Source: an uncultured virus (IMG/VR IMGVR_UViG_2061766007_000135)
Taxonomy: Duplodnaviria; Heunggongvirae; Uroviricota; Caudoviricetes
Direction: 5' to 3' (one strand)
Length of the DNA: 50,340 nucleotides
IMG/VR virus record: IMGVR_UViG_2061766007_000135
The notes beneath the pieces are model-generated. The model ran no database searches. It was not told the DNA's origin and saw nothing but the letters and a program-made list of their open reading frames with translations. Within the stretch, counting starts at the first letter, position 1. Every line of letters starts with the position of its first letter. Positions 28,410-50,340 of this stretch are shown in pieces. Made by a program: the position numbers and the translations under genes.

Positions 28410-28419
28410 NNNNNNNNNN

Positions 28420-29117: not shown

Positions 29118-29127
29118 NNNNNNNNNN

Positions 29128-36676: not shown

Positions 36677-36863
36677 GATTATTGGAATTATTATTCTGGT
36701 TGGTTTGGTAATCTTTTTGGGGCCGTGGGTTGTTATGACCGGTTGGAATATGATTGCGGCGGGGATGTTCGCGCTGCCGACAATGACGTATTGGTCCGCC
36801 TTCTTTGGCACATGGGCGTTGTATATAATTTTGGGACATTTTCAAGCCAAGTCAGGAGATTAA
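36669..36863 (+). CDS. Small membrane protein
   Basis: Two hydrophobic segments; GAGG RBS. Confidence 0.65.
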   Translation: MGKIIGIIILVGLVIFLGPWVVMTGWNMIAAGMFALPTMTYWSAFFGTWALYIILGHFQAKSGD

Positions 36864-36865
36864 TT

Positions 36866-37657: not shown

Positions 37658-37961
37658 GTCGATTTAAAAAAATTTTTTGCCCGAATGTTACCCGGGGTGA
37701 TTTTGTACTGAAGAAAAAGTGTAAGGGTAGTCTGCCCTAGCAGAAACGCACGCCGGGCCGCCTGCGATCAAGGCGGCCCGATTTTGCGCCCAAACTTCTA
37801 ATGCAAAAATATTTAATACAAATGTCATACAAATTTTACAGATCATTCCAGCCCGAAAGTTCAGCACCTAGTTAACAAAAACTTTACACAAAAACGTATT
37901 GACTTCCTGGCAGACCTATGCTATAATGTAGTCACAAGGTTGAGAGAGGGAGGCCACAAAG

Positions 37962-38363
37962 ATGACTTACTACTGGGACATGGACGGCGTGCTGGCAGAC
38001 TTCCACAAGGCGGCTAATGGTAATTGGTCGAAAGCTCTGCGCTATGACTTCATCGTGAATCTGCCGGCTTTTGAAGAGAATGTCAAAACCCTTAATGAGA
38101 TGATCGCCGCTGGCATTACCTGCTACATTCTGACCAAAGCCGCCAATGCGGACGCGCGCCGCGGCAAGATCGACTGGCTGAAGAAGTATGTTCCTGCGAT
38201 GGATGAAGAGCACTTCATCTGCCTGTACAAAGGTCGCAAGGTGGACAGCATGAAGGAAGAAGGAACGCTCATTGATGACGATCTGACCAACATCAAGCAA
38301 TGGCGCAAAGCTGGTTACACTGCAATCTATCTTGAGACTAAAGGTGAAGCGATTCACCTTTAA
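37962..38363 (+). CDS. HAD-family 5'(3')-deoxyribonucleotidase-like protein, paralog 1
   Basis: WDMDGVLADF, ILT, K.DWLKKY, LIDD..NI..W. Confidence 0.85.
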   Translation: MTYYWDMDGVLADFHKAANGNWSKALRYDFIVNLPAFEENVKTLNEMIAAGITCYILTKAANADARRGKIDWLKKYVPAMDEEHFICLYKGRKVDSMKEEGTLIDDDLTNIKQWRKAGYTAIYLETKGEAIHL

Positions 38364-38591
38364 TCTCAAGCAATAGTAAAGCATACCAGACACAACATAA
38401 TAAACAAAGAAGGGTTGCTTTATGCGAATCACTGTTTAGCAAGAAACAACTAATAACCTAACACTTTTAATATCCTATACAATCAATCTGTATACGTAAG
38501 TTTGAATAACACGTAATAAGTTCTTAACTTGACAGTCCGACGTATCTATGCTATAATGTCTACAGAAACAAGAGAGAGAGGTAAGTAAAAG

Positions 38592-38927
38592 ATGATCAGC
38601 AAGAAGATGGCGGCAATCCTGATGGTGATTATGGTGCTAACTGGTATGGTCCTGGGCGTGCCGTTGGGCAAGCAGTGGATGAGAGAGCACACAACCGTGA
38701 CAGACACTTATCCGCGTATGGGCATCGTAACAGTGGTTGATCACGACAATGATCTAATCACCATCACCGACAGCGTTGGCTTTGACTGGCTGTGGGAAGG
38801 TGCAGAAGATTGGTGCGAAGGTGATCTTGCAAGTATGATAATGGACACCAACGGCACCGACAGCATCACTGATGACATTATCGTGGACATCAGTTACAGT
38901 GGATGGCTTCAGGACGCGAAGTCCTGA
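38592..38927 (+). CDS. Membrane-anchored hypothetical protein
   Basis: N-terminal hydrophobic helix, acidic beta-rich domain; own promoter and RBS. Confidence 0.7.
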   Translation: MISKKMAAILMVIMVLTGMVLGVPLGKQWMREHTTVTDTYPRMGIVTVVDHDNDLITITDSVGFDWLWEGAEDWCEGDLASMIMDTNGTDSITDDIIVDISYSGWLQDAKS

Positions 38928-39154
38928 AGCCTTATCTCACGCAGGCGCGCGCACGGGCGTGTGCGCGCCTAATTCGCACCTATGTATAGTCACACATAAT
39001 TATACGAGCAATCGTCCAGGGTATGCGGCACGTGCGCGCTCCCGATAGTATGCCATACACTATTGACAGGCCCACAAAAAAAGTTGTGCAGACCTCTTGA
39101 CAATAAGCGGATTATGTGCTATACTATAGTCACAAAGAAGGGAGGCAATACTGA

Positions 39155-39601
39155 ATGACTAAAGCAATCTGGTTCGACATGGATGGTACTATCGCTGATC
39201 TGTATGCCGTAGAAGGATGGCTTGCTTACCTCCAGGCAGAAGATACCACTCCTTATGAGCAGGCGAAGGTTATGCACAACATGGCCCAGCTTGCAAAGCT
39301 CCTGCACAGTGTACAGCGCAAAGGTTATACAATAGGTATCATCAGCTGGACGAGCAAGCGTGGCACGCCAGAGTATAATGAGCGTGTGGCAGAGGTAAAG
39401 AGGGCGTGGCTTGACAAGCATCTGCACAGTGTTGTATGGGACGCCATCAATGTAGTAGAGTATGGTACTAACAAGTACAGCGTGTGCAAGGGTGGCATCC
39501 TCTTCGACGATGAGCAAGGCAACAGAGACGCTTGGCAGGATGAAGCACACGAGCCAAAAGACATCATCAAAATCTTGAAAAAAATTATCAAAGAGGCTTG
39601 A
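39155..39601 (+). CDS. HAD-family nucleotidase-like protein, paralog 2
   Basis: FDMDGTIADLY, IISW, KRAWL, ILFDD. Confidence 0.85.
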   Translation: MTKAIWFDMDGTIADLYAVEGWLAYLQAEDTTPYEQAKVMHNMAQLAKLLHSVQRKGYTIGIISWTSKRGTPEYNERVAEVKRAWLDKHLHSVVWDAINVVEYGTNKYSVCKGGILFDDEQGNRDAWQDEAHEPKDIIKILKKIIKEA

Positions 39602-39656
39602 CAACTCAAGCCTCTTGTGCTATAATAGAACCATCAAGAGAGAGGAGTTGACCACG

Positions 39657-39854
39657 ATGCTGTATGAACTGACACTGAACTATGATAATGGTGCGACGAA
39701 AAAAGAGATCGCTGACCTGCCGACACTGATGCACTGTCTGAGTTATTACATGGACGAAGAGCCATGGCACACCATCGACATTATGAACTGCCAGACAGGC
39801 GAAGTCATCGCTATGTGGGAACAGAATGATGACTATGGGGTCACAGTACGATAA
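39657..39854 (+). CDS. Hypothetical protein, 65 aa
   Basis: ATG after GAGGAG; own promoter; followed by a terminator. Confidence 0.7.
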   Translation: MLYELTLNYDNGATKKEIADLPTLMHCLSYYMDEEPWHTIDIMNCQTGEVIAMWEQNDDYGVTVR

Positions 39855-40079
39855 TCCAATGAAGGTTGACCGAAAGGCCAGCCTTTTACTTTTCGCTCGG
39901 CCGCGCGCGGGTGTGCGCGGCCGAGTTTACGCAAGACAATAAGCCCAAGAAAAACAAAATGAAAAAACGCCCTGGCGAACCGGAGTTTTTGATCCCGAAA
40001 TGACTTAACCAATTCTTAACTTGACTTCCTGGCTGATCAGTGGTATACTTAAACCAGAAAAAGGAAAGGGGACAGAACA

Positions 40080-40427
40080 ATGATTAACTTGACTACTTGC
40101 AAAATCTCGTATCACTTTCAGAATGATCGGCAAGAGCGCAAGGCCAAAATCGACAAAATCATCAATAACAATCTGGGGCAAGTGGTTATTGAAGAGTGGT
40201 ACCGCGATGCGTGGCGTTGCCTGACTGATACTGGATTGATTATCATTGTATCCGCAAAGCAAGATTTCATCCTGACTTATTACTTTGCTACAATGAAGAA
40301 AGCTAAAGCAATGTATCACGATGCTTTCAAGACTATGCCGCAAGCCGTAGCAAATAAGATCATCAAAAATGCTAACACCTATTCCGCAATCTATCACGCC
40401 AGCATCAGCGAACGAGACCACGATTAA
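40080..40427 (+). CDS. Hypothetical protein, 115 aa
   Basis: Own promoter and RBS. Confidence 0.75.
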   Translation: MINLTTCKISYHFQNDRQERKAKIDKIINNNLGQVVIEEWYRDAWRCLTDTGLIIIVSAKQDFILTYYFATMKKAKAMYHDAFKTMPQAVANKIIKNANTYSAIYHASISERDHD

Positions 40428-40511
40428 CCAACAGTTAACACAAAAAAGTATTGACAAACCGAACGTCCTATGATATAATAAGTACAACGAAATGAGAGAG
40501 AGGTAATCAAA

Positions 40512-40757
40512 ATGAAGAAGATTCTGGCTGAAGGTTCCCGCAATGTGCTGTTCGTCTGCCGCAACTGCTCCACCACTTACATGGCCGATCTGAGACTGAA
40601 GGGCGATTGGAGCGATGGTGATGCTTGGCGCTCCAGGTCCGGCAAGACCGCGTTCTGCAACTGCCCGCTGTGTGCCACCGAGAACCGCACCGTGCTTGCC
40701 ACCGCGACGGCTTACACCGCCTATGGCGAACTGCTCAATGCCCCTCAGCCTCGCTGA
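40512..40757 (+). CDS. Zinc-ribbon protein, 81 aa
   Basis: CRNC...CPLC; own promoter; terminator CCCCTCAGC/GCTGAGGGG-TTTTT overlaps the stop. Confidence 0.75.
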   Translation: MKKILAEGSRNVLFVCRNCSTTYMADLRLKGDWSDGDAWRSRSGKTAFCNCPLCATENRTVLATATAYTAYGELLNAPQPR

Positions 40758-40936
40758 GGGGTTTTTCATCGGGCCGCGCGCCATCGGTCCTGGCGCGCGG
40801 TTTTTGGGCTGATTGAAGGTCCTGGAGGTTTTTATAGGCAAATGCGCGAATGTTAAGATTTGATAAAGTTCCCGATACCCCTTGACATCCTGGCGCGGCA
40901 GATGTATAATAGTATCAGAAAGTGAGGCGAAAGCAA

Positions 40937-41143
40937 ATGCTTATGAACACTCTGTTAGGCAAGACTTTGGCAATCTGGATGCTGACTGGACACTTTTTCG
41001 CTGGCTGTGTTTTCCTTCTCGTTGGTCTTATCAACTACCACTGGCCGCGCATCAAGTATCGCATTCTCCGGTGGGCGGGCTGGAAGCCGGTTACAATAGT
41101 AGAGAAAACCCCATTCACGCCGACTGGCAAGTACCGCATTTAA
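40937..41143 (+). CDS. Small membrane protein, 68 aa
   Basis: Hydrophobic segment; GTGAGG RBS; own promoter. Confidence 0.65.
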   Translation: MLMNTLLGKTLAIWMLTGHFFAGCVFLLVGLINYHWPRIKYRILRWAGWKPVTIVEKTPFTPTGKYRI

Positions 41144-41216
41144 CCAACGCTTAACTTGACAAAACCCCTTTCACCTGCTATAATAGACTTATCAACAAGA
41201 GAGGAAAGTGATAAGA

Positions 41217-41399
41217 ATGAAAGAAAATAAGACTTCTGCTGGCATCGGTTTCAATGGCCTTCTGGCTCTGCTGTTTATCGGTCTCAAACTGTGTGGCGTG
41301 ATCTCCTGGTCCTGGCTGTGGGTGCTGTCGCCCCTCTGGATCCCTCTGGCTCTGGCTGTTGTGATCTGCCTGTTCATCCTGATTGCCAACCATTTTTAA
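41217..41399 (+). CDS. Small phage membrane protein (GIGF.GLL..LFI.LKL.GVI.WSW.WVL.PLW family)
   Basis: Characteristic motif of a widespread phage two-helix protein family; own promoter. Confidence 0.8.
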   Translation: MKENKTSAGIGFNGLLALLFIGLKLCGVISWSWLWVLSPLWIPLALAVVICLFILIANHF

Positions 41400-41477
41400 C
41401 AAACGCTTTACCTGCGGAGGGGTTGACAAAACCCCTCCAGGGTGCTACAATAGAACCATCGAAAGGAGCTGATTTGA

Positions 41478-41945
41478 ATGAATAAAGAAATCATTAAGGC
41501 TATGCAGGGCAAGAAGGAACACAAGATGCGCAAGTGGTGGCGCCAGAATGGTTACAAAGTTTGGCGTGTGGTACTGTTCCCGCTGTGGATTGGTGAGCTT
41601 CTGAAAAACAAGATTGACAAGCGTCTGAACAGCAAAGAGGAATGGAATGAGGAACGCGCTAATGAGATTCTCAGCTATTACATTCCGCGCCGCGCTGAAT
41701 GGGACGAAAAAGAACAGTGCTTCTACCTTTTCGACAATGGTATGGGCTGGGGCATCGCCTACGCTAAGAAGTTTCTCAAGAGGAAGGATCGCCGCTTCTG
41801 GCAAGTAAACGGCAGCTGGTGGGGCGGTCAAATGCGAATCTTCCTCATTGAAAAGTTTGAACTGGAAGGATTCACAAAAGAAGTCGGCGTTTGTGATGAC
41901 GGATGGACAGAAGTTACTTTCAATCTTAACAAAAAAGGAGCTTGA
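41478..41945 (+). CDS. Hypothetical Trp/basic-rich protein, 155 aa
   Basis: GAAAGGAG RBS, own promoter. Confidence 0.75.
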   Translation: MNKEIIKAMQGKKEHKMRKWWRQNGYKVWRVVLFPLWIGELLKNKIDKRLNSKEEWNEERANEILSYYIPRRAEWDEKEQCFYLFDNGMGWGIAYAKKFLKRKDRRFWQVNGSWWGGQMRIFLIEKFELEGFTKEVGVCDDGWTEVTFNLNKKGA

Positions 41946-41949
41946 TCTT

Positions 41950-42162
41950 ATGACCAAATCTAACACCTTCCCTAAGTCCTTCAACTACACTAACTCACTG
42001 GGTTGCCCCAAAAAGCTGGTGGTGAACGCACCTAACGAAGCGGGCAAGTATTTCGTAACTCTGTGGGAAATGCTCCACGGCGAGTTTTGCGGGAGCGGCG
42101 AAATGACCCGCGAAGAACTGAACAGCTACCTTGAACACTTCGGCATCAGCGGCGGGGTTTGA
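41950..42162 (+). CDS. Hypothetical protein, 70 aa
   Basis: ATG after AAGGAG; true start is downstream of the track start 41848. Confidence 0.7.
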   Translation: MTKSNTFPKSFNYTNSLGCPKKLVVNAPNEAGKYFVTLWEMLHGEFCGSGEMTREELNSYLEHFGISGGV

Positions 42163-42319
42163 TCCCTGCCGCTTTCGTCTGCGCGCCGACGGCCCTGGCG
42201 CGCAGAGTTTGCGATATGATAGGAGCTTCAGATTTTTCAATGTAAAAAGTTGGTAAACTGCCTTGACTTTGTGCGCCCGATATGGTATACTATACCCAGA
42301 TCAAGAGAGAGAGGTGCTT

Positions 42320-42913
42320 ATGATGAAGTCCAGTTACGAAGCTCGCGCGCTTAAGTTCGCCTACACCCTGGTTGCTCTGTTCGCCGATTGTCTGACCTAT
42401 CAGGATTTCCGCGCCGTGATTATGGAATACAATAGGCATCACAGCCGTCAGCTCAATTACTCCTGCGGCGTGTCGCGTATGGTTATCATTCGGGCCGATT
42501 ATGTCATCAAGTTCGACATGGTGCCCGAAGGAATGTTCTCCAATGGTTGTGCTGGTAACAATGCCACCGAAGCAGAAGTCTATGCGCGCAGTGTGGTTGA
42601 TGGTTATGAGTATCTGCTTGCTAAACCTACTTGCATTAACATCAATGGCCGCGATATTACCATTATGCCGCGCATCAGTCACGTGAATGATGAAAGCCGC
42701 TATTATGTCAACTATTGCACAGATGATGAGTATGATTGGCTTTGTGAGAATATCAATGACCTGCATGAAGGTAATCTCGGCTATCGCAATGGTAAGGTCT
42801 GTGTGATCGACTATGCGTGGGATGCCACTTCTGAGAATCAAGACTATGCAAGTCTGACAATGCCCACAAGCGCAAAAGAGCCAGAGCTCTGTTTGAAGTT
42901 CCCCAGTCTCTAA
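42320..42913 (+). CDS. Protein-kinase-like fold protein, 197 aa
   Basis: GVSRMV (Gly loop), YVIKF (catalytic Lys), E..VY (helix C), IMPR hinge, DLHEGN catalytic loop, VIDY Mg-binding. Confidence 0.7.
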   Translation: MMKSSYEARALKFAYTLVALFADCLTYQDFRAVIMEYNRHHSRQLNYSCGVSRMVIIRADYVIKFDMVPEGMFSNGCAGNNATEAEVYARSVVDGYEYLLAKPTCININGRDITIMPRISHVNDESRYYVNYCTDDEYDWLCENINDLHEGNLGYRNGKVCVIDYAWDATSENQDYASLTMPTSAKEPELCLKFPSL

Positions 42914-43119
42914 ACCTCAAGATGCCTAAAAGGCATCTTTTTTGTATGTTNNNNNNNNNNCATAATTATGCAGATCAAATGTATAGTTATGCGCCTGGAC
43001 CTGGCGGCCCGAAACCTGGCACTTTACCAACTCTTAACTTGCAATTTGGCTCCACCTGTGCTATAATAAATACGAACTTGAGGGAAGGACACCCGCCAAA
43101 CCAGAAAGGGATTGATAGT

Positions 43120-43818
43120 ATGACTACCACCAACAAAGCAATCGTTATCGACACCGAGACCTGCAACATCATCAAGAGCGACAAAGTCCAGCCCGGCAAC
43201 AACCTGACCTATGATATTGGCTATTCTAAGATTGAGCCGTCCACCGGCCGAGTGCTTGAGCGCCATTCCTACGTCGTGCGGGAAATCTTCTTCGGCGAAC
43301 GTGAGCGGATGGACAGCGCCTACTATGCGAACAAGCTGCCCCAGTATTATGATGATATTGCATCCGGCAAGCGGATTGTGAAATCCTTCTTTGAAGTGAT
43401 GAACGAAATCAACGAACAGTGCCACAATGACAATGTGATCGCTGTTATCGCTCACAATGCGCGCTTTGATGTGGATGCGCTGAACACCACCGCGCGCTGG
43501 CTGACTGGTCTGGATTATGTGACCGCCCTTCCGCGTGATGTGGAAATTTGGGACAGTATGCAGATGTGGAACGCGGTCAAGCCTGCTAAGTATTCCGCTT
43601 TTTGTGAAGAAAACGGATACAAGACGAACCACAAGCCGCCGCGGGATCGCCTGACCGCTGAAATTATTTACCGCTTCCTATCTGGTGAAATTGACTTTGA
43701 AGAAAGCCACACCGCGCTGGAAGATGTGGAAATCGAAAGTCAGATCGTTTTCGCCTGCTATCGAACCCACAAGCCGCTGAAAGAAGCGCGCGTCCTGTAT
43801 CACGCCAGAAAAGCGTGA
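43120..43818 (+). CDS. DEDDh (DnaQ-like) 3'-5' exonuclease, paralog 1, 232 aa
   Basis: VIDTET, AHNARFD, HTALED; own promoter and RBS. Confidence 0.85.
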   Translation: MTTTNKAIVIDTETCNIIKSDKVQPGNNLTYDIGYSKIEPSTGRVLERHSYVVREIFFGERERMDSAYYANKLPQYYDDIASGKRIVKSFFEVMNEINEQCHNDNVIAVIAHNARFDVDALNTTARWLTGLDYVTALPRDVEIWDSMQMWNAVKPAKYSAFCEENGYKTNHKPPRDRLTAEIIYRFLSGEIDFEESHTALEDVEIESQIVFACYRTHKPLKEARVLYHARKA

Positions 43819-43897
43819 TACAGGACATCACCGAAACTTAACTTGACTTCTGGCGCGATTGATGCTATAATTACTTACGTTGAAAGGGGTTGAGTAA

Positions 43898-44278
43898 ATG
43901 AATCAGATCGAAAAGCTGATGAAGAATCTGGGCATCACGCGCGAAGAAGCGGAACAGATGATGCGCGACGATGAAGCAATCGACAAAGGCGCAAAGCTGT
44001 TTGAACAGACAGCGGAACAGAAAGCCGCCGCGAAAGCCGCTTGCAAAGGGATGGCAAGAGCCGTCAATGCCTACGGTAAAGAAGTCAAGCGAGAGCGCAA
44101 ACCCAACGACTTGAAACGCTGGATCATCGCGCGCGTGAAAGTCCTCTGTGAGGGCTGGGAACTGAACGGCGATGCGCTTAACGTTGCGGTAACAAATCCT
44201 GAGCGCACGATTGACTTTGAGATCGATGGCCACAGCTTCACCTTGACACTGACCGAACACCGCAAACCGAAATCTTAA
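43898..44278 (+). CDS. Hypothetical protein, VNAYGKEVKR family paralog 1
   Basis: Clear similarity to 47909-48316. Confidence 0.8.
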   Translation: MNQIEKLMKNLGITREEAEQMMRDDEAIDKGAKLFEQTAEQKAAAKAACKGMARAVNAYGKEVKRERKPNDLKRWIIARVKVLCEGWELNGDALNVAVTNPERTIDFEIDGHSFTLTLTEHRKPKS

Positions 44279-44360
44279 CTTGACAATCCTGACCGACTGT
44301 GATACAATAAGTACATCAAAGGGCAAGGAAAAGCCCTAAAAACCAGAAAGGATTGATATT

Positions 44361-44708
44361 ATGACTAATAAGATGACCTACGTTGACGCCCTGAACATCG
44401 CCATCGAAACCCTGACCGACGCTGATGTGATCGAAAAGCTGACCGCCCTGCGTGACCAGACCGCGAAGCGCAACAGCACCGAGAACCGCAAGCCCACTAA
44501 GACCCAGCAGGAGAACGCGGAACTCCAGAAGGTGGTTCTCGCCGCCCTGACCCGCGAACCCTGCACCATCTCCGAGCTAATGACCCGCGACGCTCGCCTG
44601 AGCGCCCTGAGCAACCAGAAGGTCGCCGCGCTGACCAACGCTCTGGTCAAGAGTGGGGACGCGCTGAAGATTCCCGACGGTCGCAAGATGACCTTCGCCC
44701 TCGCGTGA
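44361..44708 (+). CDS. Winged-helix-like DNA-binding protein, paralog 1
   Basis: KRNST..KPTK.Q.EN, then TISEL...SNQKVAAL...LVK.G..K wHTH pattern. Confidence 0.7.
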   Translation: MTNKMTYVDALNIAIETLTDADVIEKLTALRDQTAKRNSTENRKPTKTQQENAELQKVVLAALTREPCTISELMTRDARLSALSNQKVAALTNALVKSGDALKIPDGRKMTFALA

Positions 44709-44897
44709 GGGCAATCCCCAGGCCCCAGCCCTCGCGGCTGGGGCTTCATTTGCCGGGCCGACCGCTGCTGGGCGCAGCGGTCGGAATTTGCGATGTATAC
44801 AGGTCTGCATAAATTTACATTCAAAAAGATCAAAAAAAGGGGTTGACAATCACTCCCGAATGTGGTACAATGTTATCAGAAAGTGAGGGACGAACCA

Positions 44898-45074
44898 ATG
44901 AAACGAGCCTTTTTCAAGAGAGTGGACAACCTGGCCGCCTGGGATTTAGACGCCGGATGCCGTCGCATTGTGGATCAATCCACCCCGGCTAATCGCCGCC
45001 TAAAAAAGCGTTTGCGCAAGATGGCCAGAAAGCAACTTAACAAAGAGTTTACAAACGAACCTATTGACAATTAG
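44898..45074 (+). CDS. Small basic protein, 58 aa (ends at TAG)
   Basis: GTGAGG RBS, own promoter; NRRLKKRLRKMARK. Confidence 0.65.
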   Translation: MKRAFFKRVDNLAAWDLDAGCRRIVDQSTPANRRLKKRLRKMARKQLNKEFTNEPIDN

Positions 45075-45119
45075 TCGGATGTATGCTATAATGAGTACAA
45101 CGAAAGGGGTTGAAAGAGA

Positions 45120-45566
45120 ATGAAGAAAGAAATCTGGTTCGATATGGATGGCACTATTGCTGACCTGTACGCGGTGGAAAACTGGCTGGAGTATCTGATC
45201 AATGAGGACACCTACCCTTACGCGCACGCGAAAGTGATGTTGAACTTCTCCCTGCTGGCGCGGTTGCTGAATCGCCTTCAGGATGAGGGCTGGAAGATCG
45301 GGATCATCAGCTGGACTAGCAAGAAGGGGTCGGAAGCCTACAACAGCGCGGTGGAAATGGTCAAGCGCGCGTGGCTGGCCCAGCACCTGCCCAGTGTTGA
45401 ATGGGACGAAATCCGCGTGGTACGCTATGGTACTAACAAGTATGAAACTTGCGGCGGTGGCATCTTGTTTGATGATGAGATCGGGAACCGCGAGAGCTGG
45501 AAAGATGAAGCGCACGAACCGACTGAAATTCTTGATACTCTGAAAGGGCTTCTGATGGGGAAGTAA
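45120..45566 (+). CDS. HAD-family nucleotidase-like protein, paralog 3 (close to paralog 2)
   Basis: IWFDMDGTIADLYAVE.WL.YL, IGIISWTSK, YGTNKY, GGILFDDE shared with 39155-39601. Confidence 0.85.
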   Translation: MKKEIWFDMDGTIADLYAVENWLEYLINEDTYPYAHAKVMLNFSLLARLLNRLQDEGWKIGIISWTSKKGSEAYNSAVEMVKRAWLAQHLPSVEWDEIRVVRYGTNKYETCGGGILFDDEIGNRESWKDEAHEPTEILDTLKGLLMGK

Positions 45567-45604
45567 ATCCCCATCAAGCCCACCAATAGAAAGGATGATA
45601 AATA

Positions 45605-45739
45605 ATGTCTATGAATACTCACATCGGTAAAGCGTTGGCTATTGGTATCTTTGCGGGACATCCTGTAATGGGTTGGTTGTGGGTTGGCGTGGCTTTTGTT
45701 GACTTAACCATCAAACACTGGAAAGCAAGAAAGGGCTAA
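45605..45739 (+). CDS. Small membrane peptide, 44 aa
   Basis: AAGGATGA RBS; MSMNTHIGKALAIGIFAGHPVMGWLWVGVAFVDLTIKHWKARKG. Confidence 0.55.
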   Translation: MSMNTHIGKALAIGIFAGHPVMGWLWVGVAFVDLTIKHWKARKG

Positions 45740-45743
45740 TAGT

Positions 45744-45992
45744 ATGAAGATACAAAAAGATGATTTGTATGATAATGGCTCACTAATCACCCGACAGATA
45801 AAAGAATTTGATGTTGAAATACAAGCATTGACCAACAGAGTTGAAAGAATGCGCAACTTACAACATTTGATCATTAATGGAGTGCGCGAAGGGCTCATTG
45901 TTGACACTAACACCGTGGATTTGGCAATGAGTTGGTTAAATCATTCTCAACTGTCTGCGGATGAAATAATGCAAAAGCTGGACATTTACTAA
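45744..45992 (+). CDS. Hypothetical coiled-coil protein, 82 aa
   Basis: RBS; followed by a terminator-like T-run and a GC hairpin. Confidence 0.65.
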   Translation: MKIQKDDLYDNGSLITRQIKEFDVEIQALTNRVERMRNLQHLIINGVREGLIVDTNTVDLAMSWLNHSQLSADEIMQKLDIY

Positions 45993-46291
45993 TGTCTGGC
46001 TTTTTGCGTTGGCGGCGCGTGCTCGGGCGGCACGCGCCGAGTTCGCGATAGGAGGAAGTGCACAAAAAAATAGATCAAACTTTGGGCATTTTACCGACTT
46101 GCATTTTTCTCCTGGAAGTAGTATACTATAATCGTTCCGAGGGGGAGAGTGAGACGCCGGCCTGGCGGCCTGGCTACCGAGGAAGACGGCTTAACCAAGA
46201 GTTAACTTGACAGCCGTCCACAAATGTGATACAATTAAGACATCAAAGGGGAGCTGCTAAACCCCACAAACAGAGAAAGAGAGTGATTAGT

Positions 46292-46639
46292 ATGACTAAT
46301 TCCTACACCTACATCAACGCCATCGACGAAGCCCTGTCCTGTGAGCTGTCCGACCAGTGCCGCGAGAAGCTGTCCGCGCTCCGCACCCAGATCGAGAAGC
46401 GCAACTCCACCCACAGCGACAAGCCGACCAAGAAGCAGGCCGAGAACGCCGAAGTGAAGGACATCATCCTGTCCAAGCTGTCCTCGACCGAGGGCAAGCG
46501 GTGCGGTGACATCGCCACCGAAGTCGGCATCAGTGGCCAGAAGTGCTCCGCCCTGCTGAGCCAGCTGGTCAAGACCGGCGAAGTCCTCAAGACCGAAGAG
46601 AAGCGGGTCGCTCTCTTCACCCTCCCTGTGGGCGGCTAA
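46292..46639 (+). CDS. Winged-helix-like DNA-binding protein, paralog 2
   Basis: QIEKRNST..KPTKKQ.EN..CGDIATEVGISGQKCSALLSQLVKTG. Confidence 0.75.
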   Translation: MTNSYTYINAIDEALSCELSDQCREKLSALRTQIEKRNSTHSDKPTKKQAENAEVKDIILSKLSSTEGKRCGDIATEVGISGQKCSALLSQLVKTGEVLKTEEKRVALFTLPVGG

Positions 46640-46652
46640 TGCCGCCCCTTAT

Positions 46653-46738
46653 GGGGATGAGGACGGTCGGGTAACTGTCACGGTGCCAGTCGCCAGGGGC
46701 AAGGCCCCAAGCGGGTTCGACTCCCGCCATCTCCACCA
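46653..46738 (+). ncRNA. Non-canonical tRNA-like RNA with tmRNA/tRNA-Ala-type acceptor stem, 86 nt
   Basis: GGGGATG/CATCTCC acceptor with G3-U70, A73 and encoded CCA; perfect T-arm GCGGG-TTCGACT-CCCGC; 6-bp D-like stem; 5-bp variable arm; degenerate anticodon arm; terminator follows. Confidence 0.75.
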
Positions 46739-46762
46739 GCCCCTTCGGGGGCTTTTCTTTTT
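46739..46762 (+). terminator. Intrinsic terminator after the tRNA-like RNA
   Basis: GCCCC-TTCG-GGGGC-TTTTCTTTTT. Confidence 0.85.
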
Positions 46763-46903
46763 GACCGCGCGTCTGCGGCCCAGACGCACGGTTTTGTGCA
46801 TCCTGGATACCTCTGCATATTTATCCGCAAAAATGTATGAATATTCTTGTTGACAAATGCTCCCGAATGTGCTATACTATCACTGTTGAAAGGGGTTGAG
46901 GTT

Positions 46904-47062
46904 ATGAAGTCTCTTATGCTGGGTCTGGGTTGTCTTCTGCTGATGGTTTCTTTCCTGTGTATGGTTGGCCTGGTGCTTGCTCCCTGTACTGGTTTCACGG
47001 TGGGCTGTGTGTCCACTATGTGCGGAGCCTGCGGCATTGTTAAATTCTTGGAAACCCATTGA
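46904..47062 (+). CDS. Small hydrophobic Cys-rich membrane peptide, 52 aa
   Basis: Own promoter, RBS; stop overlaps the next -35. Confidence 0.6.
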   Translation: MKSLMLGLGCLLLMVSFLCMVGLVLAPCTGFTVGCVSTMCGACGIVKFLETH

Positions 47063-47120
47063 CATCTTGTCTAGTCTATGGTATACTAATTCCATCAAAT
47101 AAAGAAAGAGGTTGATTTGA

Positions 47121-47831
47121 ATGCCTGCCACCACTATCATTACCCTTGCTATGCTTCTTGAACAGATCGCGCAGATCGCGTATGACCATCGCGGCGAAAA
47201 GCTCATCTGTATCGACACAGAAACCGCTTTTAACATGCCGTGGCAACGTTTCTATGACTTCGGGCTTGCTGTCATCAATAGGGCTGGAAAGATTTTTTTC
47301 AAGCTGTCGCTTGTCAATTCTTCCATCTTCTATGGTAGAGCGGACGCAATGCAATCTTGCTACTATGCTAACAAGTTGCCGCAGTACTATGTTGAAATAG
47401 AAGATGGAACGCGCATTGTTCTTACTTCTAAAGAAATCAAGATACTGTTCGCCGCAATTTGTGAACACTTCAACATCAAGAAAGTTTGCGCTTACAACAT
47501 TGCTTTTGATTATCGCGCTTGCAATAACACTTTGCGAAACTTCTTCCCTACTGATACTGAATATTGGGACATTATGAAGATGGCAAAAGATGTTTTCGGC
47601 ACGATGAAGTCTTATCACAGTTTTTGTGAAGATAATGGTTTTATGACCAAACACAAAAAGCCGCGCCACCAGCTGAAAGCCGAAACTGTTTATCGGTTCA
47701 TAACTAAAGATCCTGAGTTTGTCGAAGCGCACACCGGCTTGCGTGACGTAGAGATCGAAACGATTATCCTTGCAGAATGTTTCAAGCGGCATAAGAAAAT
47801 GACGCGAGTGTGGGAACCGAAGAGGGCTTAA
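47121..47831 (+). CDS. DEDDh 3'-5' exonuclease, paralog 2
   Basis: IDTET, AYNIAFD, HTGLRDVEIE; shares YYANKLPQYY and FCE.NG with paralog 1. Confidence 0.85.
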   Translation: MPATTIITLAMLLEQIAQIAYDHRGEKLICIDTETAFNMPWQRFYDFGLAVINRAGKIFFKLSLVNSSIFYGRADAMQSCYYANKLPQYYVEIEDGTRIVLTSKEIKILFAAICEHFNIKKVCAYNIAFDYRACNNTLRNFFPTDTEYWDIMKMAKDVFGTMKSYHSFCEDNGFMTKHKKPRHQLKAETVYRFITKDPEFVEAHTGLRDVEIETIILAECFKRHKKMTRVWEPKRA

Positions 47832-47908
47832 CGCCCTCTTCACATTCGGGCTATTGACAAAAGAAAAAAAATGTGATAAAATATTTTTAGAAAGTGAGGG
47901 ATGAGCAA

Positions 47909-48316
47909 ATGACTAAAGAGCAATTTATCGAACAGTGGCTTGACAAGTATGAGCAGGCCCACCCCGATGAGCGTCTGGACTATGACGCCCTGCGGGAGCA
48001 AGCCGACTGCGAGTGGTACGACAAAGAGGTGGACCGCGGCAACGCTACGGAGTACGATCTGAGCGCCGAGCAGCAGAAGGCCGTCAAGGCCGCTATGCAG
48101 GGGATGGCCCACCGGAGTGTCAACGCCTACGGGAAAGAGGTCAAGCGCGTGCGGAAGCCGAACGAGGCCAAGCGCGAACTGGTGCAGGCCATTGCGGACG
48201 CTCTCGCCGCCTACGGCGCGGACATCTCCAACCCCGAGCGGCAGGTCGATTTCACCTGGCAGGGCATCGCCTACAGTGTGACCCTGACGGCTCACCGCCC
48301 GCCCAAAGCCAAGTAA
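47909..48316 (+). CDS. Hypothetical protein, VNAYGKEVKR family paralog 2
   Basis: EQ.KA.KAA..GMA..VNAYGKEVKR.RKPN..KR, NPER..DF, LT.HR.PK shared with 43898-44278. Confidence 0.8.
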   Translation: MTKEQFIEQWLDKYEQAHPDERLDYDALREQADCEWYDKEVDRGNATEYDLSAEQQKAVKAAMQGMAHRSVNAYGKEVKRVRKPNEAKRELVQAIADALAAYGADISNPERQVDFTWQGIAYSVTLTAHRPPKAK

Positions 48317-48792
48317 GGCTCCGGCCCCCGCCGGGGCCTTTTCTTTTCGGCCGGCCGCTGCTGGGCGCAGCGGCCGGTTTTTACGCCTGGAGGGACCACC
48401 TGGAATTTTGCGCGCAAAAGGCCAATGTAAAGCGTGGGTTAAATCAGCCCGGAACCCCTTGACAGATCGGGCCGCAGGGTGTATAATGTGTTCGTAAGGT
48501 TGAGGGAGGGCAGGGCCCCACGGGGCCGGCTCGGACAGACGAAACAAACTCTTAACTTGACAATCCGGCTGATCAGTAGTATAATGGACACATCAAAAGG
48601 GGATGATACCGATGGTTTGAGATGGGGCGACACCCGACAGGCGCTTGCCCGCGCCGCGTCCACCTGGCGGGTAGCTCAGTAAGGCAAAAGGACGCTTAAC
48701 CAACACTTAACTTGACAAACCCAACCGACTATGCTATAATGAGTACATCAAAAGGGGAAGGAAAACCCCACAAACCAGAAAGGGTTGATATT

Positions 48793-49143
48793 ATGACCAC
48801 TAAAATCACTTACGCTGACGCTCTGAACACTGTCCTGACCACCTACGAACTGCCTGCCGAAGTCGCTGAGAAGCTGATCGCTCTGAAAGAGCAGATCGAA
48901 AAGCGCAACTCTACGGAGCGCAAGCCCACCAAAGTCCAGCAGGCCAATGTGGCTCTCCGTGAGAAGGTGCTGGCGGTGCTGACCACTGAGCCGGTCACTG
49001 TGTCCGAGTTGATGGCCCGCGATCCCGAGCTGGCGGCCCTGTCCAATCAGAAGGTGGCGGCTCTGGTGAACGCCCTCGTGAAGGACGGTCAGGCCCTCAA
49101 GCTGCCGGATGGCCGCAAGATGACCTTCTGCCTGCCGCGCTGA
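48793..49143 (+). CDS. Winged-helix-like DNA-binding protein, paralog 3 (close to paralog 1)
   Basis: LSNQKVAAL.NALVK.G.ALK.PDGRKMTF shared with 44361-44708. Confidence 0.75.
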   Translation: MTTKITYADALNTVLTTYELPAEVAEKLIALKEQIEKRNSTERKPTKVQQANVALREKVLAVLTTEPVTVSELMARDPELAALSNQKVAALVNALVKDGQALKLPDGRKMTFCLPR

Positions 49144-49438
49144 TGCGGCAACCCCTAGGGGAGGCGTAAGCCTCCCCCTTTTGGTGTCGCTCGGACGGGC
49201 CGGTCGCGGGCGATCCGGCCCGAGTTTCGCGATCGGTATGCATATGCAAATTTTTCGCTTGAAACTCCCATATGCGATCGGAATGCTTGAACTCCCGAAT
49301 ATATGCCTTATTTGGGCCGATCGGCAGACCGATTGGCTTCCAGCTCATTCGAGCGTCTCTTTGCGCTCTCTAAACAGAGCTACAACTCGCTGTAGCCCTA
49401 AAAAATACCATTTTGCACTACTTTCATCACAAAATGAT

Positions 49439-49653
49439 TGGATTTTATCAAAAAAATATGATAAAATATGTTTTGGGGACGATTTCTTTGCGATCGGGCA
49501 CTTGATTTCACCAAAAAAATATGATATAATAAAAGAAAAACCCCTAAGTGCCTATCGGGCACTTGATTTATATCAAAAAATATGATAAAATATTGTTGGG
49601 GGTTGTACAATTGCGATCGGATACTTGATTTTTATAAAAAATTTTGGTATAAT
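49439..49653 (+). promoter_or_regulatory. Four tandem promoter-containing repeats (61-63 bp period)
   Basis: T(T/G)GATT-17 (A-tract)-TA(T/A)AAT with -35 at 49439, 49502, 49563 and 49625; the last three are preceded by (G)C(G/T)ATCGG. Confidence 0.75.
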
Positions 49654-49717
49654 ATACATGTAAAAGATGAGAAAAGCCTTTTACGAAATACGTATTTAGT
49701 ATAAGGAGCGAAATTCG

Positions 49718-50185
49718 ATGGATCAGAAGACTATTCTGGACGCCCTGCAGAAGGCCCTGGCGAACGGTTCTGGCTCACTTGACGACCTCAATCAGTTGCT
49801 TGACCGAGCCAAGAGTGACATTGCACAGGCCAAGAGAGAAGAGGAAGAGGCTGCGCGCAAGGCTAAGGAAGCTGCCGAGCGTGCTAAGATCAAGAGAGGC
49901 GAAGATATTGCCGGCCTGGCTACTCGTTTGCTTGCCGAACAGCCAACTGCTGAAGACGTTGCAATGATGCTGACCGCATTTCTCAAGACTAAGGGCTTTG
50001 AGACCGGTGTTACTGCCGAGGAAGTTGAGGACTGTTTCGCCTCTAGTGTTAAGCTGCACTCTGAACTGGATCAGCTTATGAACGCAGTTAAGGACTTGGG
50101 CGATATATTCAACACTAAGCCTAAGAAGGAACGCGAAAGTGATGACATTCTCGACCAGTTCTTGCGTCAGAGAGGCTTGCGGTAA
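49718..50185 (+). CDS. Hypothetical coiled-coil protein, 155 aa
   Basis: TAAGGAG RBS; intact ORF; terminator follows. Confidence 0.8.
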   Translation: MDQKTILDALQKALANGSGSLDDLNQLLDRAKSDIAQAKREEEEAARKAKEAAERAKIKRGEDIAGLATRLLAEQPTAEDVAMMLTAFLKTKGFETGVTAEEVEDCFASSVKLHSELDQLMNAVKDLGDIFNTKPKKERESDDILDQFLRQRGLR

Positions 50186-50192
50186 AGAAAAT

Positions 50193-50215
50193 AGAGCCGC
50201 AAGGCTCTTTTTTTT
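50193..50215 (+). terminator. Intrinsic terminator
   Basis: AGAGCC-GCAA-GGCTCT followed by a T-run. Confidence 0.85.
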
Positions 50216-50340
50216 ATATATTAAAGGAAAACGATAACGGAATCGGTAACGAGTAAATATATATAGATGTCTAGCACCGATCGGCACCACCACACCTCTG
50301 TCACCTGCAATTTTTGTATAAAATCTTATAAATTATTAAA

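What the first reader, a model, noticed from the sequence alone, without database searches (positions are those of the whole stretch)
46653..46738. 86-nt tRNA mimic: alanine-identity acceptor, tmRNA-like ends, tRNA-Sec-like arms, no proper anticodon arm
Seen: GGGGATG-AG-[GACGGT cgggta ACTGTC]-A-CGGTGCCAGTCGCCA-[GGGGC aag GCCCC]-AA-[GCGGG TTCGACT CCCGC]-CATCTCC-ACCA, downstream of a wHTH gene and followed at once by a terminator. Known: G3-U70 plus A73 is the AlaRS identity; these termini resemble Firmicutes tmRNA; a 6-bp D-stem with a long variable arm recalls tRNA-Sec and allo-tRNAs. It lacks U8, a canonical 7-nt U33 anticodon loop (a TGC triplet is present but not in a clean loop) and any tmRNA tag frame. 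Inference: an aminoacylatable decoy acting on SmpB/trans-translation, EF-Tu, RelA/T-box sensing or anticodon nucleases. Notable in a phage that rewires termination.
Basis: partly seen in the sequence, partly recalled or inferred. Interest (0 to 1): 0.85.

Follow-up and report, generated by a model that had tools for sequence, protein, structure and literature searches.

The report
Anticodon-less alanine-type tRNA mimic in phage
A rumen phage that reads the TAG stop codon as glutamine carries a real, conserved 86-base gene for a tRNA-shaped RNA that keeps the alanine-accepting end of a tRNA or tmRNA but has no codon-reading loop, a new structural variant of decoy-like RNAs already known from a few phages.

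Summary
Window 46653-46738 (+) is an 86-nt RNA gene with a 7-bp acceptor stem (G3.U70, A73, encoded CCA), a 6-bp D arm, a 4-bp hairpin with a 5-nt loop, a 5-bp extra arm and a T arm, followed by a terminator. ARAGORN and Rfam at curated cut-offs find nothing. Rfam tmRNA aligns only the two ends (33 bits, cut-off 47).

A true homolog lies in a complete related phage, G007 (165.7 kb). It has the same five helices, 60 of 86 bases identical, 9 fully compensatory pairs and 54 of 54 cells paired. That excludes a decaying relic or an attP remnant. None of 5 complete relatives has an integrase.

The 3' 26 nt equal tmRNA 3' ends in at least 120 bacterial species. The core is a class-II-like cloverleaf, not the tmRNA tRNA-like domain: the D-loop motif, GGAC and helix P2 are all missing. 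It also differs from the DS6A "TLD-only" tmRNA.

It is accessory. Two strains with 92-96% identical flanks lack exactly this block.

Most likely it is a non-decoding, alanine-chargeable decoy. Its target is unproven, and interference with trans-translation is my leading guess. I class it as a new variant of a known kind.

The parts
46207..46235 (+). Sigma-70-type promoter (TTGACA, 17 nt, TACAAT, with a TG extension) of the transcription unit that ends with the RNA
   Evidence: 11 of 12 consensus matches. No other promoter-like site lies between it and the RNA.
46226..46639 (+). Small ORF upstream (137 aa from GTG; the likely start is ATG 46293), weakly MarR/winged-helix-like
   Evidence: phrog_1687, E 4.6e-5; no Pfam match. 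A homolog at 73% nucleotide identity lies in relative G036.
46630..46647 (+). GC-rich hairpin (GGGCGGC-TAAT-GCCGCCC) spanning the stop codon, 5 nt before the RNA 5' end. Its 3' half belongs to the insertion block.
   Evidence: Read. The G007 copy also has a GC hairpin just upstream of +1.
46641..46735 (+). Presence/absence block of about 95 nt that carries the RNA
   Evidence: table 5: one contig each in runs X5 and X6 (flanks 92-96% identical) joins 46639/46640 to 46736, with 3-4 other letters between.
46653..46738 (+). The 86-nt tRNA-like RNA gene (whole)
46653..46659 (+). Acceptor stem 5' strand (G1-G7). It pairs with 46728-46734, and G3 (46655) pairs with U70 (46732).
   Evidence: 7 of 7 pairs kept, 2 compensatory, G.U kept in both sequences.
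46662..46679 (+). D arm: 6-bp stem and 6-nt loop CGGGTA (the GG is conserved)
   Evidence: helix 2 has 3 compensatory pairs. The loop is CGGRTA in both sequences.
46682..46694 (+). Short hairpin in place of the anticodon arm: 4 bp and a 5-nt loop CCAGT (CTCGT in G007)
   Evidence: helix 3 has 1 compensatory and 2 one-sided changes and is fully paired. The alternative 5-bp stem with a 7-nt UGC loop is rejected.
46696..46708 (+). Extra (variable-type) arm: 5 bp and a 3-nt loop
   Evidence: helix 4 has 2 compensatory pairs.
46711..46727 (+). T arm: GCGGG, TTCGACT, CCCGC
   Evidence: Together with the 3' acceptor strand and ACCA it is identical to many bacterial tmRNA 3' ends.
46728..46738 (+). 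Acceptor 3' strand CATCTCC, discriminator A and the encoded CCA
46738..46765 (+). Intrinsic-terminator-like hairpin (AGCCCC-TTCG-GGGGCT) with a T run, directly after the RNA
46769..46797 (+). Second terminator-like hairpin

Best explanation
It is a stand-alone, accessory phage gene for a stable, full-size, L-shaped tRNA look-alike that accepts alanine but cannot read a codon.

Shown: a five-helix cloverleaf maintained by compensatory change; conserved G3.U70, A73, encoded CCA, D-loop GG and T loop; no conserved anticodon; early-type promoter context and a terminator; presence/absence among near-identical strains.

Inferred from established knowledge of tRNA and tmRNA handling (recalled, not tested): RNase P cuts the leader at G1. 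Host AlaRS, which needs only the acceptor helix with G3.U70, charges the RNA. EF-Tu can bind the acceptor/T minihelix.

Without an anticodon loop the RNA cannot take part in decoding. It would therefore act as a competitor or decoy for proteins that handle the alanine acceptor end shared by tRNA-Ala and tmRNA. My leading guess for the purpose is damping or re-balancing of host trans-translation. This phage lineage suppresses TAG with a Gln-type tRNA(CUA), which should increase read-through, stalling and demand for tmRNA. The mechanism would not be the canonical SmpB titration proposed for DS6A-type mini-tmRNAs.
For: Structure and selection. The homolog in G007 is 86 nt with 60 of 86 bases identical. 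It has 9 compensatory pairs over 5 helices and 54 of 54 cells paired. Model R1 scores 110 and 107 bits on the two copies. The G3.U70 wobble is kept although pairs 4-69 and 5-68 were replaced.

Non-decoding. The loop is 5 nt, CCAGT against CTCGT. The alternative fold with a UGC anticodon is 70% paired in its stem, has no compensation, and gives the triplet CCG in G007. ARAGORN at default settings finds nothing.

tmRNA-type end. The 26-nt 3' end is exact in at least 120 species, of which ARAGORN of 120 tmRNA and 0 tRNA.

Expression context. In the window the order is promoter, ORF, RNA, terminator. The G007 copy has its own TTGACT-17-TATAAT promoter.

Link to the trans-translation theme. The phage and G007 are TAG-recoded, and TAG columns hold Q in 486 of 677 cells. 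G007 has a tRNA(CUA) but no tRNA-Ala and no tmRNA. Two complete relatives (G004, G026) carry a full tmRNA at 102 bits.

Precedent. The DS6A 'TLD only' RNA is known, and a similar molecule is reported to inhibit tmRNA strongly (PMC4131195 and PMC11915505; passages read).
Against: - No experiment and no raw-read evidence shows transcription, processing or charging. The only RNA-library cover is a Logan contig (X20), which cannot show transcription.
- There are only two diverged members, so 'conserved' features rest on one comparison.
- The core lacks the tmRNA TLD features. At least 105 of 120 bacterial tmRNAs with the same 3' end have GGAC before the T arm, and the printed 5' ends carry the GG..TTCGAC D-loop. 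This RNA has AA and a paired D stem instead, so SmpB binding is doubtful.
- The tmRNA covariance model also gives ordinary phage tRNA-Ala 33-34 bits. That score therefore does not separate the two origins.
- The syntenic relative G036 and two close strains do without the RNA, so it is dispensable.
- The apparent either/or distribution of full tmRNA and mini RNAs rests on 2 and 5 of 14 near-complete genomes and is not significant.
Confidence: 0.4

Rival explanations
1. It is a canonical 'TLD-only' mini-tmRNA of the DS6A type that binds and titrates host SmpB, and thereby blocks trans-translation.
For: The best Rfam family is tmRNA (E 9e-12). The 3' 26 nt are identical to bacterial tmRNAs. DS6A is a precedent. 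Eighteen IMG/VR contigs carry 72-89-nt mini-tmRNAs, so the kind is widespread in phages.
Against: Only the ends align to the tmRNA model. DS6A scores 43 bits with helix P2 aligned. This RNA has three independent hairpins, proven by covariation, and no P2. GGAC precedes the T arm in 9 of the 18 IMG/VR minis, 15 of 18 end in AC there, and most carry a GG..GAC D-loop motif; this RNA has AA and a 6-bp D stem. On tmRNA, SmpB occupies the space of the missing anticodon stem-loop (PMC4131195 introduction), and here that space is filled with RNA.
Confidence: 0.15
2. It is a sponge against a host anti-phage toxin or nuclease that attacks tRNA acceptor or CCA ends, or tmRNA. It would be a bait that carries the recognised upper half without being needed for translation.
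For: It is accessory and mobile among close strains. It sits in an early, strongly promoted region. It has a full tRNA shape with a conserved acceptor end but a free-varying loop. Related phages carry several other unrelated-looking alanine-type non-decoders: a 60-nt form in G003, a 74-nt form in 8 records and a 97-nt form in G033.
Against: No such host system was identified here. There is no linked anti-defence gene.
Confidence: 0.12
3. It is a cis-acting RNA-processing or stability signal (like a t-element or tRNA punctuation). RNase P cuts at its 5' end to define the 3' end of the upstream message, and charging is irrelevant.
For: In the window it lies 13 nt after the stop codon of the upstream ORF, on the same transcription unit. 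A GC hairpin would be left at the new mRNA 3' end. Earlier notes of this scan propose this role for anticodon-less tRNA look-alikes after rIIB in other phages (unchecked AI notes).
Against: The G007 copy has its own promoter directly upstream and follows no ORF on that transcript. Strains without the block end the same gene at the same terminator. G3.U70, A73, the encoded CCA, the D-loop GG and the whole lower body are maintained by compensation, and a cutting signal would not need them.
Confidence: 0.12
4. It is a decaying tRNA-Ala or tmRNA pseudogene, or the attP core of an element that integrates into ssrA.
For: The 3' 28 nt alone occur in 360 phage records, some of them unannotated and typical of att cores, others inside phage tmRNA genes. 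Relatives carry ordinary tRNA-Ala genes, one of which has the same acceptor stem (G006).
Against: There are 9 compensatory pairs and no unpaired cell, including in the 5' half. No Phage_integrase and no Resolvase was found in 0 of 5 complete relatives, including G007, which has direct terminal repeats. No integrase-like hit was found among the window ORFs scanned. In the phage collection, 0 of 360 records cover 80% or more of the element.
Confidence: 0.04
5. It is a working decoder of unusual shape, either a tRNA-Ala(UGC) through the alternative fold that relaxed ARAGORN reports, or a reader that uses the 5-nt loop.
For: ARAGORN at 80% thresholds calls the window copy tRNA-Ala(tgc). G007 has no ordinary tRNA-Ala.
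Against: The alternative anticodon stem is 70% paired with no compensation, and pair 27-39 is unpaired in both sequences. The triplet is CCG in G007, where relaxed ARAGORN gives a different and inconsistent call. Three compensatory pairs support the 6-bp D stem, which excludes that fold. The loop letters differ between the two copies.
Confidence: 0.04

Closest known systems
'TLD-only' (CDS-less) tmRNA of Mycobacterium phage DS6A (JN698994, about 28478-28560; PMC4131195, PMC11915505)
   Same: Both are phage-encoded RNAs of about 83-86 nt. Both have a 7-bp acceptor stem with G3.U70, a tmRNA-type T arm and no tag reading frame. Both score below the Rfam tmRNA cut-off, and neither can decode.
   Different: DS6A keeps the TLD plan: an unpaired D-loop (AATGGTGGTCGAC), a closing helix P2 capped by a hairpin, and GCAC before the T arm. 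It scores 43.2 bits with P2 aligned. The window RNA has a 6-bp D arm, a 4-bp hairpin and a separate extra arm, no P2 and AA before the T arm, and scores 33 bits on its ends only. The DS6A copy ends in ACTA and this one in ACCA.
tRNA-like domain of bacterial tmRNA (Rfam RF00023)
   Same: The first 7 nt and the last 26-28 nt are identical to tmRNAs of many bacteria, including rumen and gut Clostridia. The alanine identity set is shared.
   Different: There is no mRNA-like domain and there are no pseudoknots. The D-loop motif, GGAC and P2 are absent.
Elongator tRNA-Ala, including the tRNA-Ala(UGC) genes of related phages
   Same: Cloverleaf-like shape, G3.U70, A73, CCA, D-loop GG and T loop. The G006 tRNA-Ala has the same acceptor stem.
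   Different: There is no 5-bp/7-nt anticodon arm and no conserved anticodon. The D stem has 6 bp, there is a long extra arm, and A8 replaces U8. ARAGORN at default thresholds does not find it.
tRNA-Sec and allo-tRNAs (Mukai et al., PMC5389517; only the start of the abstract in the search listing was seen)
   Same: A 6-bp D stem and a long extra arm. Some members are proposed to be regulatory non-coding RNAs.
   Different: The defining 8/4 or 9/3 acceptor/T branch (8/5 for bacterial tRNA-Sec, recalled) is not present; this RNA is 7/5. There is no UCA or other conserved anticodon.
CDS-less organellar tmRNAs (jakobid mitochondria; about 65-bp plastid forms in Mallomonadaceae; PMC11915505, passage read)
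   Same: Both are reduced tmRNA-derived alanine acceptors without a tag frame.
   Different: The organellar forms occur in organelles with a co-occurring imported SmpB and keep a TLD-like design. This RNA is in a phage, no SmpB gene was found in the 5 complete relatives searched (0 of 5), and its core is cloverleaf-like.

Membership tests
Canonical tRNA (ARAGORN / Rfam tRNA clan) | Detected by standard tRNA finders at default or curated thresholds | tested here: not met
   ARAGORN finds 0 genes in the window. Rfam finds 0 at gathering scores. Within the tRNA clan the best family is tmRNA, not tRNA.
Canonical tRNA (ARAGORN / Rfam tRNA clan) | 5-bp anticodon stem with a 7-nt loop and an anticodon conserved among orthologs | tested here: not met
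   The supported helix is 4 bp with a 5-nt loop, CCAGT against CTCGT. The alternative 7-nt-loop fold is 70% paired with no compensation, and its triplet is UGC in one copy and CCG in the other.
Canonical tRNA (ARAGORN / Rfam tRNA clan) | 7-bp acceptor stem, 5-bp T stem with a 7-nt T loop, D-loop GG and a 3' CCA | tested here: met
tmRNA (RF00023) | Score at or above the gathering cut-off, with an mRNA-like domain and a tag reading frame | tested here: not met
   33 bits against a cut-off of 47. 326 model positions are replaced by 47 nt. ARAGORN finds no tmRNA.
tmRNA tRNA-like domain / DS6A-type TLD-only tmRNA | Acceptor stem with G3.U70, A73 and a tmRNA-type T arm | tested here: met
   The 3' 26 nt are exact in at least 120 species, of which ARAGORN of 120 tmRNA and 0 tRNA.
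tmRNA tRNA-like domain / DS6A-type TLD-only tmRNA | Unpaired D-loop with the GG..(T)TCGAC motif and GGAC (or NNAC) just before the T stem | tested here: not met
   The window has AGGACGGTCGGGTAACT, paired as a 6-bp stem, and CCAA before the T stem; G007 has CTAA. At least 105 of 120 bacterial tmRNAs with the same end have GGAC. Among the IMG/VR minis, 9 of 18 have GGAC and 15 of 18 end in AC.
tmRNA tRNA-like domain / DS6A-type TLD-only tmRNA | Helix P2 closing the region between the D-loop and the T arm | tested here: not met
   Three separate hairpins are supported by 6 compensatory pairs. DS6A aligns with P2.
tmRNA tRNA-like domain / DS6A-type TLD-only tmRNA | Binds SmpB and inhibits tmRNA tagging | not testable with these tools
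   No RNA-protein prediction or assay is available. No SmpB gene was found in 0 of 5 complete relatives.
tRNA-Sec / allo-tRNA | 12-bp or 13-bp acceptor/T branch arranged as 8/4, 9/3 or 8/5 | tested here: not met
   The branch is 7/5. Pairs 1-7 with 76-82 and 59-63 with 71-75 are all kept.
tRNA-Sec / allo-tRNA | 6-bp D stem and a long extra arm | tested here: met
   Helices 2 and 4, with 3 and 2 compensatory pairs.
attP core of ssrA-integrating elements | Only the 3' part of ssrA is present, and an integrase is present in the element | tested here: not met
   The 5' strand is present and co-varies. 0 of 5 complete relatives have a tyrosine or serine recombinase. G007 has direct terminal repeats.
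tRNA-like mRNA processing signal (t-element type) | Lies at the 3' end of a coding transcript in all members and is cleaved by RNase P/Z | tested here: inconclusive
   The position fits in the window. The G007 copy has its own promoter and no upstream ORF on that transcript. Cleavage cannot be tested here.
Alanine acceptor (AlaRS substrate) | G3.U70 in a 7-bp acceptor helix, A73 and CCA | tested here: met
   The sequence features are present and conserved in both members. Actual charging was not tested.

The most novel reading that the evidence does not exclude
TAG-recoding rumen phages carry a previously undescribed class of full-size, all-RNA alanine acceptors. These combine a tmRNA-type acceptor/T arm with a class-II tRNA body whose anticodon loop is replaced by a 5-nt cap. 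In effect this would be an SmpB-independent RNA stand-in for the tmRNA-TLD/SmpB particle, or a dedicated non-ribosomal Ala carrier. It would act on ribosomes that stall or read through at UAG while the phage switches the cell to amber suppression. The other alanine-type non-decoders in sister phages (60, 74 and 97 nt) and the full tmRNAs in two relatives would then be alternative solutions to the same problem.
Probability: 0.12. Interest if true: 0.85.

Novelty: new variant of a known kind. Interest (0 to 1): 0.55.

Why it matters
Phage RNAs that copy the alanine-accepting end of tRNA or tmRNA but cannot decode are known from very few described cases (DS6A). Their mode of action is inferred from one E. 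coli experiment with a similar molecule.

This example shows that the same acceptor end can be mounted on a quite different, covariation-proven body. That body leaves no room for SmpB in its usual place. It therefore separates two ideas that are usually merged: mimicry of the alanine acceptor, and titration of SmpB.

The RNA sits in a lineage that reassigns TAG to glutamine. Read-through and stalling should load the ribosome-rescue system in such cells, and sister genomes carry a complete tmRNA. That gives a concrete, testable link between stop-codon recoding and manipulation of ribosome rescue.

It is also a practical warning. Standard tRNA and tmRNA finders miss these genes.

Tried and rejected
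- Neighbour-protein searches in IMG/VR, with the upstream ORF and the downstream 236-aa ORF, found no relatives.
- Two structure-derived DNA patterns in IMG/VR returned only G007.
- The one metagenome scan returned 5 bacterial contigs with an unrelated 90-nt tmRNA-ended stretch whose acceptor has a C.U mismatch. The window's own contig is not in IMG/VR, the JGI metagenomes or the phage collection.
- No whole genome is held for the window.
- Model R1 over 39 related records found only G007 as a clear member. The next scores were 43.7 bits (the G033 97-nt element) and 42.3 bits, an ordinary tRNA-Met by ARAGORN. The G033 element is therefore only a possible distant relative.
- Look-ups of earlier findings by place and by sequence gave nothing.
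- Read laying. Cover of the element by contigs of X10 ('probably DNA') and X20 (an RNA-seq library) does not show transcription. The X20 contig ends at 46736, but this is a single study and is not counted as evidence of a processed end. Bins without cover in X5 and X6 are used only where a contig joins across them.
- The stretch 46134-46206 behind another promoter is not unusually structured (z +1.07).
- A suppressor role was rejected. There is no CUA in the loop, and the lineage has its own tRNA(CUA).
- Not used: protein homology searches, structure prediction and complex prediction, because the feature is an RNA.
- Supplements of the papers were not consulted. Mao et al. 2009 was not seen and is cited only through PMC4131195.
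Full report
**What is there**

The minimum-free-energy fold is exactly this five-helix shape at -39.3 kcal/mol. The energy alone is not unusual (z -1.67; 14 of 200 shuffles fold as well).

ARAGORN finds no tRNA or tmRNA anywhere in the window. Rfam finds nothing at gathering scores. With permissive thresholds the best family is tmRNA at 33 bits against a cut-off of 47 (E 9e-12). Only the first 8-9 and the last 30 nt align, and 326 model positions are replaced by 47 nt.

A near-consensus promoter (TTGACA-17-TACAAT, 46207-46235) drives a small ORF. The ORF runs from a likely ATG at 46293 to 46639 and is weakly MarR-like (phrog_1687, E 4.6e-5, no Pfam match). The RNA starts 13 nt after its stop codon. 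Two terminator-like hairpins follow, at 46738-46765 and 46769-46797.

**The genome around it**

Positions 1-35.6 kb are 32-37% G+C, apart from one bin at 41%, and are coded on the minus strand. They are open only if TAG is read as a sense codon. One ORF has 4548 codons with 95 TAG. This part encodes the portal, the large terminase, virion proteins and a sigma-like factor.

Positions 36-50 kb are 40-53% G+C, on the plus strand, in the standard code. They hold many sigma-70-type promoters and early-type genes: three HAD nucleotidase paralogs, a nucleoside deoxyribosyltransferase and an HNH endonuclease.

The terminase has 208 relatives in IMG/VR at 70-95% identity for the 80 kept. Many lie on contigs of 100-195 kb. 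In an alignment of 16 terminases, columns where one sequence has TAG hold Q in 486 of 677 non-TAG cells.

The two compositional halves belong together. An independent 41-kb contig (G036) carries both the terminase and a homolog of the upstream ORF.

**The decisive evidence: a diverged homolog**

The complete relative G007 is 165,734 bp with direct terminal repeats and a terminase 83% identical to the window's. It has an 86-nt element at 148351-148436 with the same fold.

The two copies share 60 of 86 positions. On the five-helix structure all 27 pairs are standard pairs in both copies (54 of 54 cells). Nine pairs changed on both sides: 2 in the acceptor stem, 3 in the D stem, 1 in the short hairpin, 2 in the extra arm and 1 in the T stem. 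Two more changed on one side (G-C to G-U). One of 500 column shuffles reaches these values, and sliding the partners by 1-3 columns gives 0-1 compensatory pairs.

The features kept unchanged are G1-G3, the G3.U70 wobble (although pairs 4-69 and 5-68 were replaced), A73-CCA, A8-G9, the D loop CGGRTA, a G.U inside the D stem, the loop frame C-N-N-G-T, and AA before the T arm.

A covariance model of the pair (R1) scores 110 and 107 bits on the two copies. It finds nothing else in the window. It finds no other clear member in 39 related phage records.

**What it is not**

- *Not an ordinary tRNA.* The middle hairpin has 4 bp and a 5-nt loop, and the loop letters differ between the copies (CCAGT, CTCGT). 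Relaxed ARAGORN (80% thresholds) calls the window copy tRNA-Ala(tgc) through an alternative fold. That anticodon stem is only 70% paired across the two copies and has no compensatory change. It clashes with three compensatory D-stem pairs, and the triplet would be CCG in G007.
- *Not the amber suppressor.* G007 has a separate 95-nt tRNA(CUA) whose acceptor end looks Gln-like (U1-A72, G73; the identity rule is recalled).
- *Not tRNA-Sec or allo-tRNA.* The acceptor/T branch is 7/5 (definition from the abstract of PMC5389517).
- *Not an attP relic.* The 5' strand co-varies with the 3' strand. None of 5 complete relatives, including G007, has a tyrosine or serine recombinase. In the GenBank phage collection 360 records match only the 3' roughly 28 nt and none covers 80% of the element. 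That 3'-only pattern is what att cores and true tmRNA genes look like.

**Relation to tmRNA**

ARAGORN of these 120 loci tmRNA and none tRNA. The other 45 have upstream flanks too short for the program, but the ones printed show tmRNA-like 3' regions.

These tmRNAs begin with the same GGGGATG. They then carry the GG..TTCGAC D-loop motif, and at least 105 of 120 have GGAC directly before the T stem. The window RNA has neither. There is also no closing helix P2.

The DS6A 'TLD only' RNA is the described precedent (PMC4131195 and PMC11915505; passages read). It keeps the D-loop motif, P2 and GCAC, and scores 43 bits with P2 aligned.

Eighteen IMG/VR contigs (16 distinct sequences) carry such mini-tmRNAs of 72-89 nt. 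GGAC precedes the T stem in 9 of 18, and 15 of 18 end in AC there. The kind is therefore real and widespread, but this RNA has a different body.

One caution applies. Ordinary phage tRNA-Ala genes also score 33-34 bits on the tmRNA model, and a related phage's tRNA-Ala has the same acceptor stem (G006). Descent from tmRNA or from tRNA-Ala cannot be settled.

**It is accessory and moves**

The syntenic relative G036 (upstream ORF 73% identical at the DNA level) has unrelated hairpins in its place.

In two other rumen or gut data sets, contigs with flanks 92-96% identical to the window join 46639/46640 directly to 46736, with 3-4 other letters between. The gene is then followed at once by the terminator (tables 5 and 8). 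Another contig (X10) holds the element with 3 differences and then diverges downstream. A contig from an RNA-seq library (X20) spans the upstream ORF (about 89% identical) and the element. Contigs cannot show transcription or ends.

In G007 the element lies in another context. It sits behind its own TTGACT-17-TATAAT promoter with a leader of about 37 nt.

**How it most likely works**

Shown: it is a maintained, full-size tRNA-shaped RNA with the alanine acceptor set and no decoding loop, expressed from early-type promoters.

Inferred from recalled textbook knowledge:
- RNase P matures the 5' end.
- The CCA is encoded.
- AlaRS needs only the acceptor helix with G3.U70.
- EF-Tu binds the acceptor/T helix.
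- The 6-bp D stem plus the 4-bp hairpin give a lower limb about as long as a normal D-plus-anticodon stack, so the molecule should have the outline of a whole tRNA.

It should therefore compete for proteins that handle the alanine acceptor end of tRNA-Ala and tmRNA, without entering decoding.

The reason to favour trans-translation as the pathway is contextual. The lineage suppresses TAG. Two complete relatives carry a full tmRNA at 102 bits, with the tag AKPYRLAA in G026. G007 has neither a tmRNA nor a tRNA-Ala.

Canonical SmpB titration is less likely than for DS6A-type RNAs. The TLD features are absent, and RNA occupies the place where SmpB sits on tmRNA (PMC4131195). I put 0.4 on this explanation as a whole. 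The structural part is much firmer than the functional part.

The rivals are a canonical SmpB titrator, an anti-defence sponge, a cis processing signal, a relic and an odd decoder. They are scored in their own sections.

**Novelty and verdict**

The kind, phage anticodon-less alanine-type tRNA/tmRNA mimics, is in print for DS6A. Earlier notes of this scan describe it for other phages (unchecked AI notes). Those notes also raised the processing-signal rival, which I tested only by context.

This RNA is a new structural variant with two known members. It is rare in the collections searched, accessory, and missed by standard finders.

My literature searches for a description of this architecture found nothing beyond DS6A and allo-tRNAs. 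Searches returned listings, and one search returned none. This is not proof of absence: subscription papers and supplements were not searched.

Noticed in passing
window 1-35635 (- strand): The late module is TAG-recoded (TAG read as Gln). It includes a 4548-codon ORF (5351-18997) with 95 in-frame TAG and an open-ended ORF of at least 1746 codons (1-5238) with 32. The early module (36-50 kb) uses the standard code.
   Followed up: partly
window 1-36000 versus 36000-50340: There is a sharp compositional split within one phage: 32-37% G+C in the late genes (one bin at 41%) against 40-53% in the early region. An independent contig (G036) links both parts, so it is not an assembly chimera. In relative G007 the contrast is much weaker (31-39%).
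   Followed up: partly
window 35910-36452, 37962-38363, 39155-39601, 45120-45566: A nucleoside 2-deoxyribosyltransferase-like gene and three paralogous HAD / 5'-deoxynucleotidase-like genes lie in the early region. This suggests nucleotide-pool or DNA-base manipulation.
   Followed up: no
window 42922-43818 and 47121-47831: Two paralogs of phrog_20187 (function unknown; weak likeness to a DNA polymerase exonuclease subunit) flank the region.
   Followed up: no
G004:19504-19836 (L104) and G026:10465-10814 (L132): Two complete relatives encode a full-length tmRNA (102.5 and 102.6 bits). ARAGORN reads the tag AKPYRLAA* in G026. No SmpB gene was found in 5 complete relatives.
   Followed up: partly
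G003:84163-84222 (L106); L140-L147; G033:244721-244817 (L133): Sister phages carry other alanine-type non-decoding tRNA look-alikes. One is a 60-nt form behind its own promoter, ending in ACTT. Another is a 74-nt form in 8 records (5 distinct sequences, ending in ATCA, with a 4-bp/5-nt hairpin in place of the anticodon arm) that ARAGORN does not find. A third is a 97-nt form with the same acceptor stem and a 6-bp D stem as the window RNA.
   Followed up: partly
G007:10186-10280 (L290): This is a 95-nt amber-suppressor tRNA(CUA) with a long extra arm and a Gln-like acceptor end (U1-A72, G73). ARAGORN labels it tRNA-Pyl only because of the anticodon.
   Followed up: partly
L001-L018 (IMG/VR): Eighteen viral contigs (16 distinct sequences) carry 72-89-nt TLD-only mini-tmRNAs with the D-loop motif and a capped P2 stub. 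The DS6A kind is therefore widespread in uncultured phages.
   Followed up: partly
L019-L023 (metagenome contigs of 120-270 kb, about 59% G+C): Five near-identical 90-nt stretches have tmRNA-like ends but a C.U mismatch in the acceptor stem. They lie on long, probably bacterial contigs, and their nature was not examined.
   Followed up: no
window 46100-46133, 46850-46878, 47059-47087: Near-consensus sigma-70 promoters (TTGACA-17-TATACT/TATAAT, often with a TG extension) recur every few hundred bases. This fits a Firmicute-type host. The one at 46100 is followed by about 70 nt without an ORF and without unusual structure.
   Followed up: partly
window 46905-47062: A small Cys-rich hydrophobic ORF of about 52 aa lies directly downstream of the RNA, behind its own promoter.
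   Followed up: no
window 25603-25870, 28410-28419, 29118-29127, 42951-42960: Runs of N (268, 10, 10 and 10 bases) interrupt the window, including inside late genes.
   Followed up: no
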